From NCBI GenBank assembly GCA_024510845.1, contig JANEMA010000007.1:514-64513 (forward strand): 64,000 nt of DNA, written 5' to 3'. Source of the DNA: Gammaproteobacteria bacterium (GTDB taxonomy: Bacteria; Pseudomonadota; Gammaproteobacteria; Chromatiales; Chromatiaceae). The position numbers were made by a program, and so were the translations under genes. The notes beneath the pieces are model-generated. The model saw only the letters and a program-made list of their open reading frames with translations. It was not told the DNA's origin and made no database searches. Positions 1 to 4,679 of the stretch are shown piece by piece (the first letter of the stretch is position 1; the number at the start of each line of letters is the position of its first letter).

Positions 1-940
1 GATATACAAACTTACCAGACACATTGCTGGCAAATTGGGTAATTGCGTAAACACGCTGATGAACATCAAAGCGTCCGTTTATGTAGTGGAAAATACTCCC
101 GATGCCACCTTCACCAGGAACGAGGATTGCCTCGCAGGCATAAGAATAGCTATCTATTCGTTCAACTGTTTCTGATCGCACAAAAAACGGATACTGCCCT
201 CCTTCAACCTTGTCTTGGTTATTCTTGGATCCAGTCTGGATATGCGCAATATCCCCCAACCGCTTCGTTTCCCACTCGCCGCTGAAGCCCGGCAAGCGGG
301 TTTTGCCGGTGAGGAGTTGCTGCATGGCGGCGGTTTTGATGGCGCGCTTTTTGGCGATGAGCTTGTCCAGCGCGGTGATGAGGGCATCGACGTCCGACAG
401 CGCGGTGGCGATGGCGCGCTGTTCTTCGAGAGAGGGCGTTGGAACAAGTGTTTTTTTCGCGCTTTGTATCGTATAGGTTTCAACAGTGGTTCCCATTGAG
501 GAATTCTTGATCTGCTTTACTATTATGTCAGTCAAGAAAACCTGCTTTAGAAACTCTGATGAATAGCCACCTCTACTCTTCAACCAGAGAACACTCGCAT
601 CTTTGAAATAAAACATATTATCTGGCGAGACGGTATACACCTTTCCGATGGTTCCGATGCCTGTAACCAATGCATCGCCCACCTTTGGAACACCATATTT
701 AGATTTCAGCGTTAGATATAAATCTTCAGTAATGAAAAGCTCGTTATCAACCACTCCTTTTTCCGCAAGAACCGCAACTTCTCTTGCTCTATAAAATGGG
801 ACCCCTCTGGATTTCCAATCTCTCTGAAGTACTCTTTTGCTCGATATAACATCGTAATATTCATCAATACGGGCTACAACCCAATCCTCCGGAATCACCC
901 CCACCTCAGTCCGCTTGTATCCCGACGGCACTTCGTCCAA
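1..940 (-). CDS. hsdS: Type I R-M specificity subunit S (runs off the left edge; start is TTG 940 or GTG 931)
   Basis: Manual translation is open to base 1: VPSGYKRTEVGVIPEDW, TRD1 (SKRVLQRDWKSRGVPFYRARE), helical spacer EEQRAIATALSDVDALITALDKLIAKKRAIKTAAMQQLLTGKTRLPGFSGEW, then TRD2. Absent from the ORF track because it is truncated by the window edge. Confidence 0.93.
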   Translation of the reverse strand, partial: MDEVPSGYKRTEVGVIPEDWVVARIDEYYDVISSKRVLQRDWKSRGVPFYRAREVAVLAEKGVVDNELFITEDLYLTLKSKYGVPKVGDALVTGIGTIGKVYTVSPDNMFYFKDASVLWLKSRGGYSSEFLKQVFLTDIIVKQIKNSSMGTTVETYTIQSAKKTLVPTPSLEEQRAIATALSDVDALITALDKLIAKKRAIKTAAMQQLLTGKTRLPGFSGEWETKRLGDIAHIQTGSKNNQDKVEGGQYPFFVRSETVERIDSYSYACEAILVPGEGGIGSIFHYINGRFDVHQRVYAITQFASNVSGKFVY

Positions 941-971
941 TGGAGAATGGTCAATGGATAATTGATAATCA
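937..971 (+). repeat. 7-nt tandem array, inverted relative to the other arrays
   Basis: ccaatgg agaatgg tcaatgg ataattg ataatca. Confidence 0.85.
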
Positions 972-985
972 GCAGTGACCTCACG

Positions 986-1013
986 GCATTGTCCATTGTC
1001 AATTACCCATTAC
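986..1013 (-). repeat. 7-nt tandem array overlapping the stop of the four-helix-bundle gene
   Basis: + strand: gcattgt ccattgt caattac ccattac. Confidence 0.85.
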
Positions 1014-1358
1014 CTCCCTGTTTTTCTTCACAATCGCCACCAACAGCTTCAGTATCTCCGTCAAATCCGCGCCAATGGATTCCGCTCCCTTGGCATCGAT
1101 ATAACCAGTTTCTTTCAACAACTGAATCCAGTACTCCGATTCATTCGCTTCCTTGAGCGCAATCGACATCTTGTGCACGAAGTCGGCCCGGCTTTCGGCC
1201 TGATCCGCTTCCCGAATCAAGGCGCCAATCGCCGTGCCACTGCGCAACAACTGCTTGCTCAGGACATATTCCCGTCTTTCCTGCTGCACATGCTGGCACA
1301 AACGCACCACACGCACCGCAAAGGCAAACGACTTGTCCCGAACCACACTTCCCTTCAC
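999..1358 (-). CDS. Four-helix-bundle protein (TIGR02436 / 23S rRNA IVP / Avd-like family)
   Basis: KSFAFAVRVVRL...LSKQLLRSGTAIGALIREADQAESRADFVHKMSIALKEANESEYWIQLL; GGGGAG RBS before the GTG start. Confidence 0.92.
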   Translation of the reverse strand: MKGSVVRDKSFAFAVRVVRLCQHVQQERREYVLSKQLLRSGTAIGALIREADQAESRADFVHKMSIALKEANESEYWIQLLKETGYIDAKGAESIGADLTEILKLLVAIVKKNREVMGN

Positions 1359-1367
1359 AGCTCCCCG

Positions 1368-1409
1368 CCACCATCCATTGTCAATTATCCATTATCAACT
1401 ATCCATTGA
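1368..1409 (-). repeat. 7-nt tandem array (6 units) overlapping the hsdM stop
   Basis: + strand: ccaccat ccattgt caattat ccattat caactat ccattga. Confidence 0.88.
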
Positions 1410-1754
1410 GGTGAGCCCCATCCGGCGCAGGTGTTCGTCCACCTTCGCCTGCAGGCTCTCCACCTCCTGCATGATCTCCGGCAGCGGCTCGGCGTAGCGC
1501 TCCTCCAGCTCCCGGATGCGGGTGGCGAGCTGCTGGGTGACGCGCTCGATCTCACCCTGCACGGCCTGTTCGAGGGCGGCGAGCCATTTGTCGTCCACCA
1601 CCAGTTCCTTGATCTCGGCCTCGGTGAGTTGGGCGTAGTGCTTGAGCACCGCTTCGTCACGGGCCTTGATGGCCTCCTTGAGCTGCTTGTTGGCGGCGGC
1701 CTCGGCGTCGAACAGCGCCAGACAATGTTTCAAAGCCGTCATCTCCTTCGCTGT

Positions 1755-1782
1755 CCATTGCTCATTGTCCATTGTCAATTGC
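1755..1782 (-). repeat. 7-nt tandem array inside the hsdM coding tail (encodes QLTMDNEQWT)
   Basis: + strand: ccattgc tcattgt ccattgt caattgc. Confidence 0.8.
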
Positions 1783-2372
1783 CGCACCTTGGTCTTGGTG
1801 ATCTTGCCCTTGTCGGTCTTGGCCTCTTCGAGCAGGCCGTCCTCGCCTGAATGCTCTTCGATGTAGCTCTCCAGTTCCTGCGCGGCGGCGTCGGCCTCGG
1901 CCTGGAGCCGGTCGATGTGCTTTTGCTCGTCTGCGAAGTAGCGGGTAACGATGAGCGCGGGGGGGATGAGGTCGGTCTTGTATTTCTTGCGGCCGATGGT
2001 GAGGTCCGGGGTCTCCTTGTGCTTCCGACCCTTCTCGGCCACCAGCTCGCGGGGTCTGGCGGCGGCCTGCCAGCCGTCCTGGACGATGGCGTAGACGTCG
2101 TCCTGCAGGGTCTCGGCCCAGTAGTCCATGAGGTGCTGGTAGACGGCGTAGGCGTCGATGAGGGGCGCGCCTTCGAATTGTTCAAGCAGGGCCTCGGAGA
2201 GTTCGTGGATGAGCGTCTTGGGCTCGGTGTCGCCATTCAGGCCCATGAGGCCGGGCCGGTGCGGATCGCGCCAGGCGTTGAAGCGTTCGAGGATGCGCTC
2301 GCGGAAGGCGGCGAACTCGGGGTGTTCGAGGATGGTGGGCTTGATGCGCTCCGGGGGAACCCGGGGGTGGCT

Positions 2373-2402
2373 GTAGGTTGGGTTAGCGGAGCGTAACCCA
2401 AC
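2373..2402 (+). repeat. GTAG-type REP palindrome, in frame within the hsdM tail (VGLRSANPTY)
   Basis: GTAG-GTTGGGTTA-gcggagcg-TAACCCAAC. Confidence 0.85.
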
Positions 2403-2431
2403 GGGGTCGGTGGGTCGGTCGGGTTGTTGTG

Positions 2432-2469
2432 CCCTCACCCCCGGCCCCTCTCCCAAAGGGAGAGGGGAG
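2432..2469 (+). repeat. REP-like palindrome of the CCCTCACCCC..CTCTCCC..GGGAGAGG class, in frame within the hsdM tail (SPLPLGEGPGVR)
   Basis: 10-bp perfect stem CCCCTCTCCC-aaa-GGGAGAGGGG at 2445-2467. Confidence 0.85.
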
Positions 2470-2477
2470 AAAAGCGT

Positions 2478-3920
2478 CTAGCGCAGGGTTGGGAAGACCT
2501 GCCAGTAGTCTTGCAGGGCGTCGATGTCGCGGTTGGGGATGCCGCCGCTCAAGTGGGCGTGGAGGTCGTGCAGGTCCTCGGGCTCGCTGGAATCGATGTA
2601 GCGCGGGATGTTGAGGTTGTAGTCGTTGGCCTCGATCTCGCGCAGGGGCGCGAAGCGGGCGTAGCGTGGCAGTTCCTTGCGGCTGGTGAAGACGTCCACG
2701 ATCTTGTGGATGTCGCGCTCGCGCAGGCGGTTCTTGTTGCCGTCCTTCATGAAGCCCCTGGAGGCGTCGATCATGAAGATGCCGCCCCGCTGGGGATCGG
2801 CGTTGGCGGCGGCGTGTTCCTTGTCGATGACCAGGATGCAGGCGGGGATGCCGGTGCCGTAGAACAGGTTGGCGGGCAGGCCGATGATGCCACGAATGAA
2901 GCCGCGCCGGACAAGGTTGCGGCGGATATTGGCCTCGGCCCCGCCGCGGAACAGCACGCCGTGGGGCAGGATGACCGCGCCCTTGCCGGTGCTCTTGAGC
3001 GACTTGAGGATGTGCAGCAGGAAGGCGTAGTCGCCGTTCTTGACCGGCGGGATGCCGTATTCGAAGCGGCCGTATTCGTCATGCTCGGGATCGAGGCCGT
3101 TGCTCCAGGCCTTGTAGGAGAAGGGCGGATTGGCCACGGCGTAGTCGAAGGTCTTGAGGCTGCCGTCCTTCTCCTTCCAGTGCGGGTTGGCCAGGGTGTT
3201 GCCCTGCCAGATCTCGGCGGTGGGGGCGTCGTGCAGGATCCTGTTCATGCGCGCCAGGGCGGCGGTGGCGTTGTCCATCTCCTGACCGAAGATGGAGAGT
3301 CCTCGCGGGGCCTCGTGGGCCACCTTGAGCAGCAGCGAGCCGGAACCACAGGTGGGGTCGTAGACCGACTGGTCCTGGCGGGTGTCCTTGCCGACGCCGA
3401 TGACCCTGGCCAGAATCCGCGAAACCTCGGCCGGGGTGTAGAACTGCCCCTTGCTCTTGCCCGACTCGGTGGCGAAGTGGCGCATCAGGTATTCGTAGGC
3501 GTCGCCCAGCAGATCATCGCCGTCAGCGCGGTTGGCGCGCAGGTCGATGGTCTCGAAGATGGCGATGAGCTTCGAGAGCCGGTCCACCATCTCCTTGCCC
3601 TTGCCGAGCTTGTCCTCATCGTTGAAGTCGGCGACGTCGATGACGCCCTTCAGGTCGTTCTCCTCGGCCAGGCGGCCGATGATCTTGTTGATTCTGTCGC
3701 CGATCTCCTTGTCGCCCTTGAGGCGCGCCATGTCGTCGAAGGAGCCGCCCTCGGGCACCAGGATCAGCGCCCTGGGGTCGCCGGCGTACTTGTCGGAAAC
3801 GTATTTGACGAACAGCAGGGTCAGCACATAGTCCTTGTACTGGGAGGCGTCCATGCCACCGCGCAGCTCGTCGCAGGACTGCCAGAGGGAGGAGTAGAGT
3901 TCGGATTTCTTCAGGGCCAT
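2478..3920 (-). CDS. hsdM: Type I R-M DNA methyltransferase subunit M, catalytic part (480 aa, ends at an amber codon)
   Basis: MALKKSELYSSLWQSCDELRGGMDASQYKDY; GQFYTP; DPTCGSG (motif I); NPPF (motif IV); YNLNIPRYID. Confidence 0.95.
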   Translation of the reverse strand: MALKKSELYSSLWQSCDELRGGMDASQYKDYVLTLLFVKYVSDKYAGDPRALILVPEGGSFDDMARLKGDKEIGDRINKIIGRLAEENDLKGVIDVADFNDEDKLGKGKEMVDRLSKLIAIFETIDLRANRADGDDLLGDAYEYLMRHFATESGKSKGQFYTPAEVSRILARVIGVGKDTRQDQSVYDPTCGSGSLLLKVAHEAPRGLSIFGQEMDNATAALARMNRILHDAPTAEIWQGNTLANPHWKEKDGSLKTFDYAVANPPFSYKAWSNGLDPEHDEYGRFEYGIPPVKNGDYAFLLHILKSLKSTGKGAVILPHGVLFRGGAEANIRRNLVRRGFIRGIIGLPANLFYGTGIPACILVIDKEHAAANADPQRGGIFMIDASRGFMKDGNKNRLRERDIHKIVDVFTSRKELPRYARFAPLREIEANDYNLNIPRYIDSSEPEDLHDLHAHLSGGIPNRDIDALQDYWQVFPTLR

Positions 3921-4060
3921 GGTGGTTCGATCGTTGGTATGTGGGAAAAGACCGGGTCTGCAGGGCTTCGTCACGCCCGCGCTGAAACCTGGCACGAAAC
4001 CTCGTGACCACGGCAGCCCGCCATTGCGCGGGGGCTTGCCGGCGCTCCCCTCCTGCGGGG

Positions 4061-4285
4061 TCATTCCTCTTTGACACGCTGGACCGGTTCGCCGATCCCG
4101 CAATCGAAGTATTCGTACAACTCGTCCAGCACATCGGTCGTGGTGTTGTAGCCACCGGTGTTCTGGATCTTCGACAGCATCGTGCGGTGAATGCCCGTCC
4201 CCTTCGCAATCTCGTCGGGCGTTACGCGCCGCCCCACGCGAAATGGCCGGTCGGCGATCGGCTCGCGCAGGCGAAATCCCGACAT
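4061..4285 (-). CDS. Small Cro/C1-type (XRE) helix-turn-helix protein
   Basis: MSGFRLRE..RRVTPDEIAKGTGIHRTMLSKIQNTGGYNTTTDVLDELYEYFDC. Confidence 0.75.
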   Translation of the reverse strand: MSGFRLREPIADRPFRVGRRVTPDEIAKGTGIHRTMLSKIQNTGGYNTTTDVLDELYEYFDCGIGEPVQRVKEE

Positions 4286-4679
4286 TTCTTCGCGGCGGAG
4301 AAGGTGGCAGGCAAGGGAGAAGGATGTCCGGGCCGATGAGCACGCAGGCCTCGCCCCACGCGAGACCGGAGGGTGGACCCGGGGTGTCCCACCTTGTTCG
4401 ATCCTGGCGTTCTCTTCCCGTCTGTTACGCCGGCAGGATGCGGCAACCAGGTTGGCATCGATGATTCGACCCCTGCGTAACCGGTACGCCGGCAACCAGA
4501 ACCTGGCATCGAGCCCGGCCAAACAGCTCATCGACAAGATCCGCTTTACTCGATAGCTTCCCGGAACAACCGTCCAATCCGGTTCCTCATCGCGTATTCT
4601 CCGGATACACTGGCGCAGGTTGCGGGGAGAGTTCCACACGAAACGACGAAGAATCTGAATTCAGGATTCATTTTCATCG

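What the first reader, a model, noticed from the sequence alone, without database searches (positions are those of the whole stretch)
937..1409. Avd-like four-helix-bundle gene wrapped in 7-nt tandem arrays at the hsdM-hsdS junction
Seen: a 119-aa four-helix-bundle gene lies between hsdM and hsdS. It is flanked by direct arrays of heptamers (ACAATGG alternating with ATAATTG-like units) at 1368-1409 and 986-1013, plus an inverted array at 937-971. The arrays supply the last codons and stop of hsdM (SMDS*) and of the bundle gene (VMGN*). A fourth array lies inside hsdM. Known: this family (TIGR02436/23S rRNA IVP) is structurally related to Avd, the nucleic-acid-binding accessory protein of diversity-generating retroelements, and its own function is unknown; heptamer tandem repeats of unknown role (STRR) occur in cyanobacteria. 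Inference: gene plus heptamer arrays form a self-contained module in which the protein recognises the repeats as DNA or RNA, inserting at operon junctions or regulating the genes it sits in. This is my best candidate for an undescribed system here.
Basis: partly seen in the sequence, partly recalled or inferred. Interest (0 to 1): 0.8.

Follow-up and report, generated by a model that had tools for sequence, protein, structure and literature searches.

The report
Heptamer-armed four-helix-bundle cassette in RM operon
A small, well-conserved gene of the kind first seen inside ribosomal-RNA "intervening sequences" sits, closed by mirror-image runs of 7-base repeats, exactly at the joint between two restriction-modification genes. 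The same gene-plus-repeat package recurs across many bacterial phyla and does not appear in the papers I could search, although this scan has met it often.

Summary
A 119-aa TIGR02436/PF05635 gene (window 1358..999, minus strand) lies between hsdM and hsdS. Heptamer arrays of unit AATKGRY sit at 1368-1409, 986-1013 and 937-971 (inverted), plus one inside hsdM at 1752-1781. They give 9 pattern matches against 0.01 expected by chance.

Two more arrays lie just outside the window, after hsdS. They form a gene-less hairpin homologous to the cassette's arms. These six arrays are the only ones in the 1.87-Mb genome, and this unit is essentially absent from 300 other genomes of the phylum.

Among the 80 closest relatives of the protein, from many phyla, 70 have a period-7 array upstream and 65 downstream. 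Only 2.8% of control windows have one. The unit differs between loci, but the downstream array is the reverse complement of the upstream one.

Orthologous operons without the insert have the hsdM stop overlapping the hsdS start, and that is exactly where the cassette sits.

Best reading: this is an intervening-sequence-like gene cassette, as in 23S rRNA, whose arms form an RNA stem. The protein is under purifying selection (dN/dS about 0.06). Whether it binds the repeats, and how the cassette moves, remain untested.

The parts
1368..1409 (-). Array B, the left (5') arm of the cassette: five to six sense heptamers (TCAATGG ATAGTTG ATAATGG ATAATTG ACAATGG ATGG). It contains the last codons and the TGA stop of hsdM (1397-1395).
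   Evidence: In the minimum-free-energy fold it pairs with C2. Duplex energy is -32 kcal/mol.
999..1358 (-). Four-helix-bundle gene of 119 aa, with a GTG start preceded by GGGGAG.
   Evidence: TIGR02436 E 2.9e-30 and PF05635 E 1.5e-26. PDB 2RLD E 2e-38, five chains. dN/dS is 0.05-0.12 against relatives. It is the only family member in the genome.
986..1013 (-). Array C1: sense heptamers that encode the gene's last residues (VMGN) and its stop. Together with C2 it forms a local hairpin.
   Evidence: -28 kcal/mol, z -2.3. Present in L001, L002 and L004. Absent in more distant relatives, where the stop is followed directly by the antisense arm.
937..971 (-). Array C2, the right (3') arm: heptamers in antisense orientation in the transcript (AUUAUCA AUUAUCC AUUGACC AUUCUCC AUUGG). 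It contains the TTG at 940-938 that opens the hsdS frame.
927..929 (-). GTG in GAAGTG, the likely ancestral hsdS start. Operons without the insert have ...GGAAGTGA with the hsdM stop overlapping the hsdS start.
   Evidence: Junction comparison with 9 or more orthologous operons lacking the insert.
1752..1781 (-). Array A: four sense heptamers inside hsdM, translated in the one open frame as QLTMDNEQWT. It replaces a variable linker of HsdM.
   Evidence: Conserved in L001, L003 and L004. In L002, L083 and L085 the same linker holds a translated REP-like element.
1..940 (-). hsdS, which runs off the window to contig C66:259. Its stop lies in array D1 (C66 230-257). D1 pairs with D2 (C66 154-188) to form gene-less hairpin D, directly before the next gene's ribosome-binding site.
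   Evidence: -51.9 kcal/mol, z -6.7. Homology of hairpin D to the cassette arms includes the inner borders. Orthologues without the hairpin have an ATGA stop/start overlap there.
1395..3926 (-). hsdM, long form of about 835 aa. Here it is split into 482-aa and 353-aa frames by an in-frame TAG inside a REP-like replacement at about 2340-2480.

Best explanation
The roughly 480-bp stretch at window 930-1410 is a gene cassette of the intervening-sequence type. A four-helix-bundle (S23p/TIGR02436) gene is enclosed by two inverted arrays of one heptamer family. The cassette was inserted exactly where hsdM's stop used to overlap hsdS's start.

**Shown**
- Gene and arms go together across many phyla.
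- The arms change their unit from locus to locus but stay complementary to each other.
- The cassette is co-directional with its host operon and abuts the upstream stop and the downstream start.
- Orthologous operons without the insert exist.
- The protein is under purifying selection.
- A gene-less copy of the same arms sits at the next junction (after hsdS), and a lone array is translated inside hsdM.
- This unit occurs nowhere else in the genome.

**Inferred**
- The cassette has no promoter of its own and is transcribed with hsdM-hsdS.
- In that RNA, arm B pairs with arm C2 into a stem of 30 or more base pairs that loops the gene out. This brings hsdM's stop and hsdS's start within about one helical turn of each other, so the host genes keep working.
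- The sense arm, rich in stop codons, ends the upstream frame whatever the register. The antisense arm, poor in stops, offers a start.
- By analogy with 23S rRNA intervening sequences, the stem is probably an RNase III substrate.

**Unknown**
- What the protein does and how the cassette gets to new sites. No recombinase, target duplication or recent movement was seen.
For: **Association of gene and arrays**
- 70 of 80 relatives have an array upstream, 65 of 80 downstream and 59 of 80 on both sides, against 2.8% of control windows. Coverage is about 50-fold above background.
- In 30 best TIGR02436 hits of the phylum, with other units, 15 have one upstream and 24 downstream, against 3.1% of control windows.

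**Complementary arms**
- Own-arm complementarity score has median 17.5. Arms paired across different loci score 8.0, and shuffled arms score 7.5.
- Units are diverse and AT-rich even in genomes of 62-66% GC.

**Fold at this locus**
- The minimum-free-energy structure pairs B with C2 around the ORF (z -3.5).
- Hairpin D folds at -51.9 kcal/mol (z -6.7).
- Sense:antisense duplexes give -25 to -48 kcal/mol, against -10 to -13 for sense:sense.

**Position in the operon**
- Nine or more orthologous operons have hsdM ...MGFxWK* overlapping the hsdS start. After hsdS they have an ATGA overlap.
- The upstream gene's stop lies inside or within 10 nt of the arm in 52 of 63 loci. The downstream start has a median of +5 nt after the arm.
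- 73 of 78 upstream and 63 of 75 downstream neighbours are co-directional.
- Stops occur in all three frames in 44 of 63 upstream arms. In 19 of 60 downstream arms there is no stop at all.

**Other support**
- dN/dS is 0.05-0.12.
- The arrays are confined to this operon in the window's genome (G000) and in five relatives' genomes. They are absent from 300 genomes of the phylum.
- The genome has an rnc gene for RNase III.
- No sigma-70-like promoter or terminator was found on the gene strand in the cassette.
- Precedent: the Coxiella 23S intervening sequence has an S23p ORF, tandem heptamers before the start codon, a 28-bp terminal stem and shown RNase III cleavage (PMC4990558).
Against: - Transcription, the stem and RNase III processing are therefore inferred.
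- The sites without the insert are only 39-57% identical orthologues, not near-identical alleles. An insertion event is inferred, not witnessed.
- The cassette has been inherited with the operon in all close relatives.
- The arms can pair in several alternative ways, so the B:C2 stem is not the only possible structure.
- hsdM is interrupted here by an in-frame stop, so 'the host genes keep working' may not hold in this genome.
- Arm complementarity could be kept by a DNA-level process such as gene conversion between arms, rather than by selection on an RNA stem.
Confidence: 0.62

Rival explanations
1. Protein-and-repeat system, close to the first reader's idea and resembling the RAYT/REPIN arrangement. 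The four-helix-bundle pentamer would recognise its own heptamer arrays as RNA or single-stranded DNA. It would then promote their copying or maintenance, and gene-less hairpins and lone arrays would be its non-autonomous satellites.
For: - A gene-less twin of the arms and a lone array lie in the same operon and nowhere else in the genome.
- In 12 or so of 77 loci, satellite arrays 0.3-2.5 kb away share the cassette's heptamer words.
- In the Planctomycetaceae genome of L007, 30 or more dispersed arrays and hairpins of this unit coexist with a single cognate cassette.
- The protein is strongly conserved.
- Relatives at 59% identity or more share the A[AG]T[GT]GA[CT] unit across several phyla.
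- The homologue Avd is described in the literature as a nucleic-acid-binding accessory protein (my own knowledge).
Against: - The protein has no nuclease, transposase or polymerase domain.
- Gene and arms being inherited together explains the shared units.
- In six of seven genomes checked the arrays have not spread beyond one operon.
- One hairpin loop carries a different cargo (L141). This fits hairpins that exist independently of the gene.
- No binding data exist.
Confidence: 0.2
2. The bundle gene is an accessory of the restriction-modification system, in defence or its regulation. The arrays would be a regulatory RNA structure that sets the HsdM:HsdS ratio.
For: - Type I R-M families are the commonest neighbours: N6_Mtase 8, HSDR_N 8, HsdM_N 8, Methylase_S 6 and RhuM 4 of 150 flanking proteins.
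- The family has been reported inside cas loci (PMC3936711).
- The hsdM-hsdS junction also hosts HigB-like, Fic-like and DUF1016-like genes in orthologues.
Against: - Most host operons are unrelated to defence: FTCD, ABC transporters, ETF, Nuo, Kdp, AcrB.
- No PADLOC model matches.
- The other type I systems of this genome (four HsdR homologues) have neither the gene nor arrays.
- The enrichment may simply reflect that mobile defence operons collect insertions.
Confidence: 0.1
3. The arrays are slippage-prone simple repeats, a contingency locus that switches the R-M system on and off. The bundle gene would be incidental.
For: A period of 7 is not a multiple of 3. Gain or loss of one unit in the translated array A (1752-1781) would frameshift hsdM. 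Unit number in array B differs among relatives, from 4 to 6. Coxiella strains differ by one heptamer.
Against: - The units are imperfect here, which makes slippage unlikely.
- Array A has four units in every relative that has it.
- Arrays B, C and D lie at gene ends, where a unit change does not shift any frame.
- This reading does not explain the inverted pairing or the tie to one protein family across phyla.
Confidence: 0.04
4. It is a remnant of a diversity-generating retroelement, with the bundle protein acting as its Avd.
For: Fold-level and CDD-level kinship of PF05635 with Avd.
Against: There is no reverse transcriptase anywhere in a 99.99%-complete genome. A family profile does not reach Avd in the PDB. 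The neighbours are not DGR parts.
Confidence: 0.02

Closest known systems
ORF-bearing intervening sequences (IVS) of 23S rRNA genes (Leptospira, Coxiella burnetii, Brucella, Xanthomonas; Ralph & McClelland 1993; Warrier et al. 2016, PMC4990558)
   Same: Same protein family (S23p/PF05635) inside a stem made of terminal inverted repeats. In Coxiella, tandem heptamers lie directly upstream of the start codon and their number varies between strains. The element has no enzyme of its own and is carried inside a host transcript.
   Different: Here the host is a protein-coding operon, not helix 25 or 45 of 23S rRNA. Both arms are built wholly of heptamer arrays. The arms supply stop and start codons for the flanking genes. 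The ORF is under purifying selection, whereas Coxiella's is decaying. RNase III cleavage is not shown here.
REP/REPIN elements with their RAYT gene (Nunvar 2010; Bertels & Rainey 2011; from my own knowledge)
   Same: A gene flanked by inverted copies of a short repeat. Gene-less doublets (hairpins) of the same repeat occur elsewhere: after hsdS here, and at 30 or more sites in one Planctomycetaceae genome.
   Different: The protein is a 119-aa helical bundle without a HUH/Y1 transposase domain. The arms are tandem heptamer arrays, not one palindrome. In most genomes checked the repeats have not dispersed.
Avd, the accessory protein of diversity-generating retroelements
   Same: Four-helix-bundle pentamer placed in the same CDD superfamily.
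   Different: The genome has no reverse transcriptase and no template/variable repeats. Sequence similarity is too low for a profile search to find it.
Cyanobacterial short tandemly repeated repetitive (STRR) heptamers (Mazel et al. 1990; from my own knowledge)
   Same: Tandem heptamers of unknown role in and between genes. Cyanobacterial relatives of this gene (L006, L010, L015, L021) carry long arrays.
   Different: The units here are not the classical STRR1-3 words as I recall them. The host is a gammaproteobacterial MAG. The arrays are tied to one gene family and to inverted pairing.
Restriction-linked ORFs (rlo genes) and other cargo between type I R-M genes (Miller et al. 2005; from my own knowledge)
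   Same: An extra gene sits between hsdM and hsdS. Orthologous operons carry HigB-like, Fic-like and DUF1016-like genes at the same joint.
   Different: Those inserts have no heptamer arms, and they are not also found in unrelated metabolic operons.

Membership tests
TIGR02436 / PF05635 (four-helix-bundle, 23S rRNA IVS protein) | Score above the curated cut-off of the family model | tested here: met
   TIGR02436 scores 104.7 bits (cut-off 24). PF05635 scores 93.1 bits (cut-off 33.8).
TIGR02436 / PF05635 (four-helix-bundle, 23S rRNA IVS protein) | Four-helix bundle that assembles as a pentamer | tested here: inconclusive
   A close solved homologue, 2RLD, matches at E 2e-38 with five chains; 2GSC matches at E 0.005. 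The fold is inferred by homology. No model of this protein was built.
23S rRNA intervening sequence (IVS) | Located in a 23S rRNA helix (25 or 45) | tested here: not met
   It lies between hsdM and hsdS. No Rfam match was found in window 1-4400.
23S rRNA intervening sequence (IVS) | S23p ORF enclosed by terminal inverted repeats that form a long stem | tested here: met
   The minimum-free-energy fold pairs array B with C2 around the ORF (z -3.5). The duplex gives -32 kcal/mol.
23S rRNA intervening sequence (IVS) | Tandem heptamers directly upstream of the ORF (described for Coxiella) | tested here: met
   Five to six units end 16 nt before the GTG start. Compare PMC4990558.
23S rRNA intervening sequence (IVS) | Excision from the transcript by RNase III | not testable with these tools
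An rnc gene is present.
DGR accessory protein Avd | Adjacent reverse transcriptase with template and variable repeats | tested here: not met
   No RVT_1 match anywhere in the genome. The neighbours are hsdM and hsdS.
REP/RAYT (REPtron) | Y1/HUH transposase gene flanked by inverted repeats | tested here: not met
   Inverted repeats are present, but the protein matches only PF05635.
REP/RAYT (REPtron) | Many gene-less repeat doublets dispersed in the same genome | tested here: not met
   In this genome there is only one gene-less hairpin and one lone array, both in the same operon. The feature is met in one relative's genome, G689.
Insertion sequence / MITE | Transposase (or derivation from one) and target-site duplication | tested here: not met
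   No transposase domain. No duplication is visible at the borders when compared with sites lacking the insert.
Type I restriction-modification operon (host) | hsdM and hsdS adjacent, with hsdR nearby | tested here: inconclusive
   hsdM and hsdS are present. The contig ends 138 nt into the next, RhuM-like gene. Four HsdR homologues lie on other contigs. hsdM carries an in-frame stop.
Cyanobacterial STRR repeats | Tandem heptamers of the STRR unit families in a cyanobacterial genome | tested here: inconclusive
   Period 7 is met. The units differ from the STRR words I recall, and the host is not a cyanobacterium (closest records are Chromatiales/Acidihalobacter MAGs).

The most novel reading that the evidence does not exclude
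Four-helix-bundle (S23p) genes and inverted heptamer-array hairpins form one self-propagating system. Each protein lineage would recognise its own 7-nt word. It would promote the seeding or copying of array hairpins at stop/start joints of transcribed operons and in rRNA helices.

Under this reading the gene-less hairpin after hsdS and the translated array in hsdM are its local offspring. The 30 or more dispersed hairpins in one Planctomycetaceae genome would be a burst of the same element. The 23S rRNA intervening sequences would be copies that landed in rRNA. This would give a function to a large orphan protein family and a cause for the unexplained excess of heptamer repeats in bacteria.
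Probability: 0.2. Interest if true: 0.85.

Novelty: new variant of a known kind. Interest (0 to 1): 0.6.

Why it matters
**Origin of intervening sequences.** The origin and spread of rRNA intervening sequences have been an open question since about 1990. Finding the same protein-plus-stem design in ordinary operons, with sites lacking the insert for comparison, suggests the rRNA cases are only the visible tip of a much larger class.

**An orphan protein family.** TIGR02436/PF05635 is very large and has no known function. It has solved structures and is kin to Avd. These data link it to a concrete nucleic-acid feature that can be tested by gel shift, and to the unexplained abundance of heptamer repeats.

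**A design rule for harmless insertion.** The locus suggests how an insert can avoid harming translationally coupled genes. A stop-rich sense arm and a stop-poor antisense arm pair with each other, which brings the old stop and start back together.

**Annotation.** The arrays supply the true ends of hsdM, of the bundle gene and of hsdS, and a start for hsdS.

Tried and rejected
- **Rfam** (window 1-4400, E up to 1): no match.
- **PADLOC**: no match for the protein.
- **Promoter and terminator scan**: nothing on the gene strand within the cassette.
- **Family profile against PDB sequences**: finds 2RLD and 2GSC but not Avd.
- **Reverse transcriptase** in the genome: none. I dropped the DGR reading.
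- **Near-identical allele without the insert**: not found. All close relatives (L001-L005, L012) carry the cassette at the same joint. Sites lacking it are only 39-57% identical orthologues.
- **Loop of hairpin D**: I looked for remains of the ORF. Only the arms and their inner borders align.
- **Cause of the protein/unit correlation**: I could not separate protein-repeat recognition from simple co-inheritance, so I left this question open.
- **Literature**: searches for TIGR02436, PF05635, S23 and heptamer terms found no description of the general cassette.
- **Phase variation**: considered and judged unlikely, because the units are imperfect and the unit number in array A is constant.
Full report
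**1. What is there**

On the minus strand the window begins with a type I restriction-modification operon. Its parts, in order of transcription:
- hsdM at 3926..2478 (PF02384 E 2e-101, TIGR00497 E 7e-86). It continues in the same frame as a 353-aa ORF at 2456..1395.
- A 119-aa ORF at 1358..999 (TIGR02436 E 2.9e-30, PF05635 E 1.5e-26).
- hsdS from 940 off the window edge (PF01420).

Period-7 tandem arrays occur in the 64-kb window only at 939-969, 1373-1408 and 1752-1781. The pattern (AATKGRY)x3 with up to 2 mismatches gives 9 matches, all between 939 and 1780, where shuffles give 0.01.

Read in the sense of the genes:
- Arrays A (1752-1781, inside hsdM), B (1368-1409) and C1 (986-1013) are sense arrays.
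- C2 (937-971) is antisense.
- B carries hsdM's last codons and stop.
- C1 carries the small gene's last codons and stop.
- C2 carries the TTG that opens the hsdS frame.

**2.

The window is C66:514-64513 of a 1.87-Mb genome in 72 contigs, 99.99% complete. In the 513 bases before the window, hsdS ends (...LTGRVRLV*) inside a fifth array, D1 (C66 230-257, sense). Forty-one bases later comes a sixth, D2 (C66 154-188, antisense). D2 lies directly before the ribosome-binding site of the next, RhuM-like gene.

D1 and D2 fold into a 26-bp hairpin (-51.9 kcal/mol, z -6.7). This hairpin is homologous to the cassette's arms beyond the repeat units themselves:
- The left arm and its inner border (GGATGGTGG) match 25 of 29 bases.
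- The right arm and its inner border match 29 of 36 bases.

It is thus a gene-less twin of the cassette.

A genome-wide scan finds arrays of this unit only in these 2.1 kb. The genome has only this one TIGR02436 gene. In 300 other genomes of the phylum the pattern is as rare as its reversed control.

**3. Is the gene tied to the arrays in general?**

I fetched the 80 best relatives of the protein (51-96% identity). They come from Chromatiales, Cyanobacteria, Planctomycetota, Bacteroidota, Chloroflexota, Nitrosomonadales, Alphaproteobacteria, Gracilibacteria, Cloacimonadota and others.

- Period-7 arrays cover 36% of the first 100 nt upstream and 31% of the first 100 nt downstream. More than 1 kb away the figure is 0.7%.
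- Periods 5, 6 and 8-10 show no such peak.
- 70 of 80 loci have an array upstream, 65 downstream and 59 on both sides. Only 2.8% of 3,707 control windows have one.
- A second sample, the 30 best TIGR02436 hits in 300 genomes of the phylum, shows the same with quite different units such as TAGGCAG, GTCACCA and GTGAGAT. There, 15 have an array upstream and 24 downstream, against 3.1% of control windows.

The unit varies from locus to locus, but the downstream array is the reverse complement of that locus's upstream unit.
- Complementarity of a locus's own arms has median score 17.5.
- Arms paired across different loci score 8.0, and shuffled arms score 7.5.
- The arms are AT-rich even in hosts of 62-66% GC.
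- They are strongly strand-asymmetric: upstream arms are 4% C and downstream arms 6% G.

**4. Where the cassette sits**

Orthologous long-hsdM operons in the same class (39-57% identity) show the state without the insert. HsdM ends ...HLxxMG(F/L)xW(K/N)*, and the hsdS start overlaps the stop (..GGAAGTGAGG..) in at least nine of them.

In the window the sequence departs from this pattern right after ...RRMGL and returns at GAAGTG CCG TCG GGA TAC AAG (927-932 onward). The insert therefore spans about 930-1410 and replaces the stop/start overlap.

The same holds for hairpin D. Orthologues have ..CTGGTATGA.. with the next gene's ATG overlapping the hsdS stop.

Other orthologues carry different cargo at the hsdM/hsdS joint: HigB-like, Fic-like and DUF1016-like genes, and a REP-like element. 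The joint is therefore a general landing place.

In L017, L006 and L023 a full cassette sits at the hsdS 3' joint, where the window has only hairpin D.

Array A replaces a variable linker of HsdM and is read in its only open frame. In L002, L083 and L085 the same linker holds a translated REP-like element.

**5. General rules of placement**

- 73 of 78 upstream and 63 of 75 downstream neighbours run in the same direction as the small gene.
- The upstream gene's stop lies inside the arm or within 10 nt of it in 52 of 63 loci (median +1 nt).
- The downstream gene's first start lies a median of 5 nt after the arm.
- Upstream arms have stops in all three frames in 44 of 63 cases. Downstream arms have none in 19 of 60.
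- Neighbour families are led by type I R-M parts (N6_Mtase 8, HSDR_N 8, HsdM_N 8, Methylase_S 6, RhuM 4 of 150). Most neighbours are unrelated: FTCD, ABC transporters, ETF, Nuo, Kdp, AcrB.

**6. The protein**

- It is closest to PDB 2RLD (E 2e-38, five chains) and more distantly to 2GSC, the Xanthomonas pentamer.
- It is under strong purifying selection: dN/dS is 0.05-0.12 against L001-L005 and L012, with dS up to more than 1.
- Kinship with Avd is documented at CDD and fold level (PMC10053308). A family profile does not reach Avd by sequence.
- The genome has no reverse transcriptase.

**7. How it probably works**

The 496-nt RNA from hsdM's end to hsdS's start folds with B paired to C2 around the whole ORF (z -3.5). 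In that stem hsdM's UGA and hsdS's UUG lie about ten base pairs apart.

Every sense array can pair with every antisense array at -25 to -48 kcal/mol. B:D2 is the strongest pairing. Sense:sense controls give -10 to -13. Alternative long-range stems are therefore possible.

No promoter-like or terminator-like site lies on the gene strand in the cassette. The genome encodes RNase III.

The closest described thing is the ORF-bearing 23S rRNA intervening sequence. In Coxiella an S23p ORF is preceded by two or three tandem heptamers and lies in a 28-bp terminal stem that RNase III cuts (PMC4990558).

I therefore read the locus as an IVS-like cassette living in an operon joint. It is transcribed with its host and looped out by its arms. 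Its sense arm ends the upstream frame, and its antisense arm leaves the downstream start free.

**8. Does the protein act on the repeats?**

This is not shown. Evidence in favour:
- Local satellites of the same unit occur here and in about 12 of 77 loci.
- In the Planctomycetaceae genome of L007, 30 or more dispersed lone arrays and short-loop hairpins of this unit coexist with a single cognate cassette among ten family genes.

Evidence against:
- In six of seven genomes checked the arrays stay within one operon.
- One hairpin loop there holds a different cargo with its own inverted ends (L141).
- The protein has no catalytic domain.

I put this reading at about 0.2.

**9. History of this locus**

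The whole hsdM-cassette-hsdS arrangement is shared with Acidihalobacter and Chromatiales MAGs (L001-L004), an Anaerolineales MAG (L005) and a Bipolaricaulota MAG (L012). Only the hsdS target-recognition domains are swapped. The cassette has therefore travelled with the operon, and no recent insertion is seen.

In the window hsdM itself is broken. A 63-nt stretch present in L001 is replaced by 141 nt holding two REP-like palindromes. These begin with an in-frame TAG.

**10. Novelty**

Earlier notes of this scan describe the same cassette in hundreds of genomes and reach the same comparison with intervening sequences. I had formed that reading before opening them.

Their later check adds cautions that my data do not contradict:
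- Armed genes are a minority of the whole family.
- No enzyme, target duplication or movement has been seen.

In print I found only the Coxiella/Leptospira rRNA cases and reports of the gene in cas loci.

What this locus adds:
- Three related array insertions in a single operon, and none elsewhere in the genome.
- A gene-less twin of the cassette.
- Clean comparison sites without the insert at two stop/start overlaps.

Noticed in passing
window 2340-2480 (minus strand): hsdM is split by an in-frame TAG. A 63-nt stretch present in L001 (..DSLFESLRPGYSQASIEPAQV..) is replaced by 141 nt holding two REP-like palindromes (CCCCTCTCCCTTTGGGAGAGGGG and GTTGGGTTACGCTCCGCTAACCCAAC). The frame continues after the stop, giving 482-aa and 353-aa pieces.
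   Followed up: partly
L003:2453-3446, compared with L004: Two near-identical copies occur in one Chromatiales MAG. In L003 the four-helix-bundle frame has lost its stop and reads through C1, the loop and C2 straight into hsdS, giving a fusion. L004 keeps the stop. This may be real or an assembly error.
   Followed up: no
L141 (G689:C2:26364-26818): A hairpin of the same heptamer unit whose loop holds a 413-nt insert with its own inverted ends of about 23 bp (GGCTATTGAGTCTCAGGTTAAT). It has no TIGR02436 match. A different cargo sits in the same kind of hairpin.
   Followed up: no
L002, L083, L085 (HsdM linker, aligned with window 1752-1781): The HsdM linker that holds array A in the window holds a translated REP-like element (..VIPAxAGIQ..) in these relatives. 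This short linker repeatedly accepts small in-frame insertions.
   Followed up: partly
L086, L088, L091, L098, L100, L103 (hsdM-hsdS joint of orthologous operons): Other cargo at the same joint: a HigB-like toxin gene, DUF1016/YhcG-like genes, a Fic-like gene, and a REP-like element identical in type to the one in the window's hsdM. I named these from their sequence by eye, not by a family search.
   Followed up: no
window 1-940 compared with L001: The two target-recognition domains of hsdS are unrelated between the window and L001, while the conserved regions are 84-94% identical. This is the usual specificity-domain swapping. The GC content of these domains (about 41%) is far below the genome's 61%.
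   Followed up: partly
G688:C117:3670-3861 (genome of L012): A second pair of inverted arrays of the same unit lies about 4.5 kb from that genome's cassette on the same contig. It may be another gene-less hairpin in the same gene cluster.
   Followed up: no
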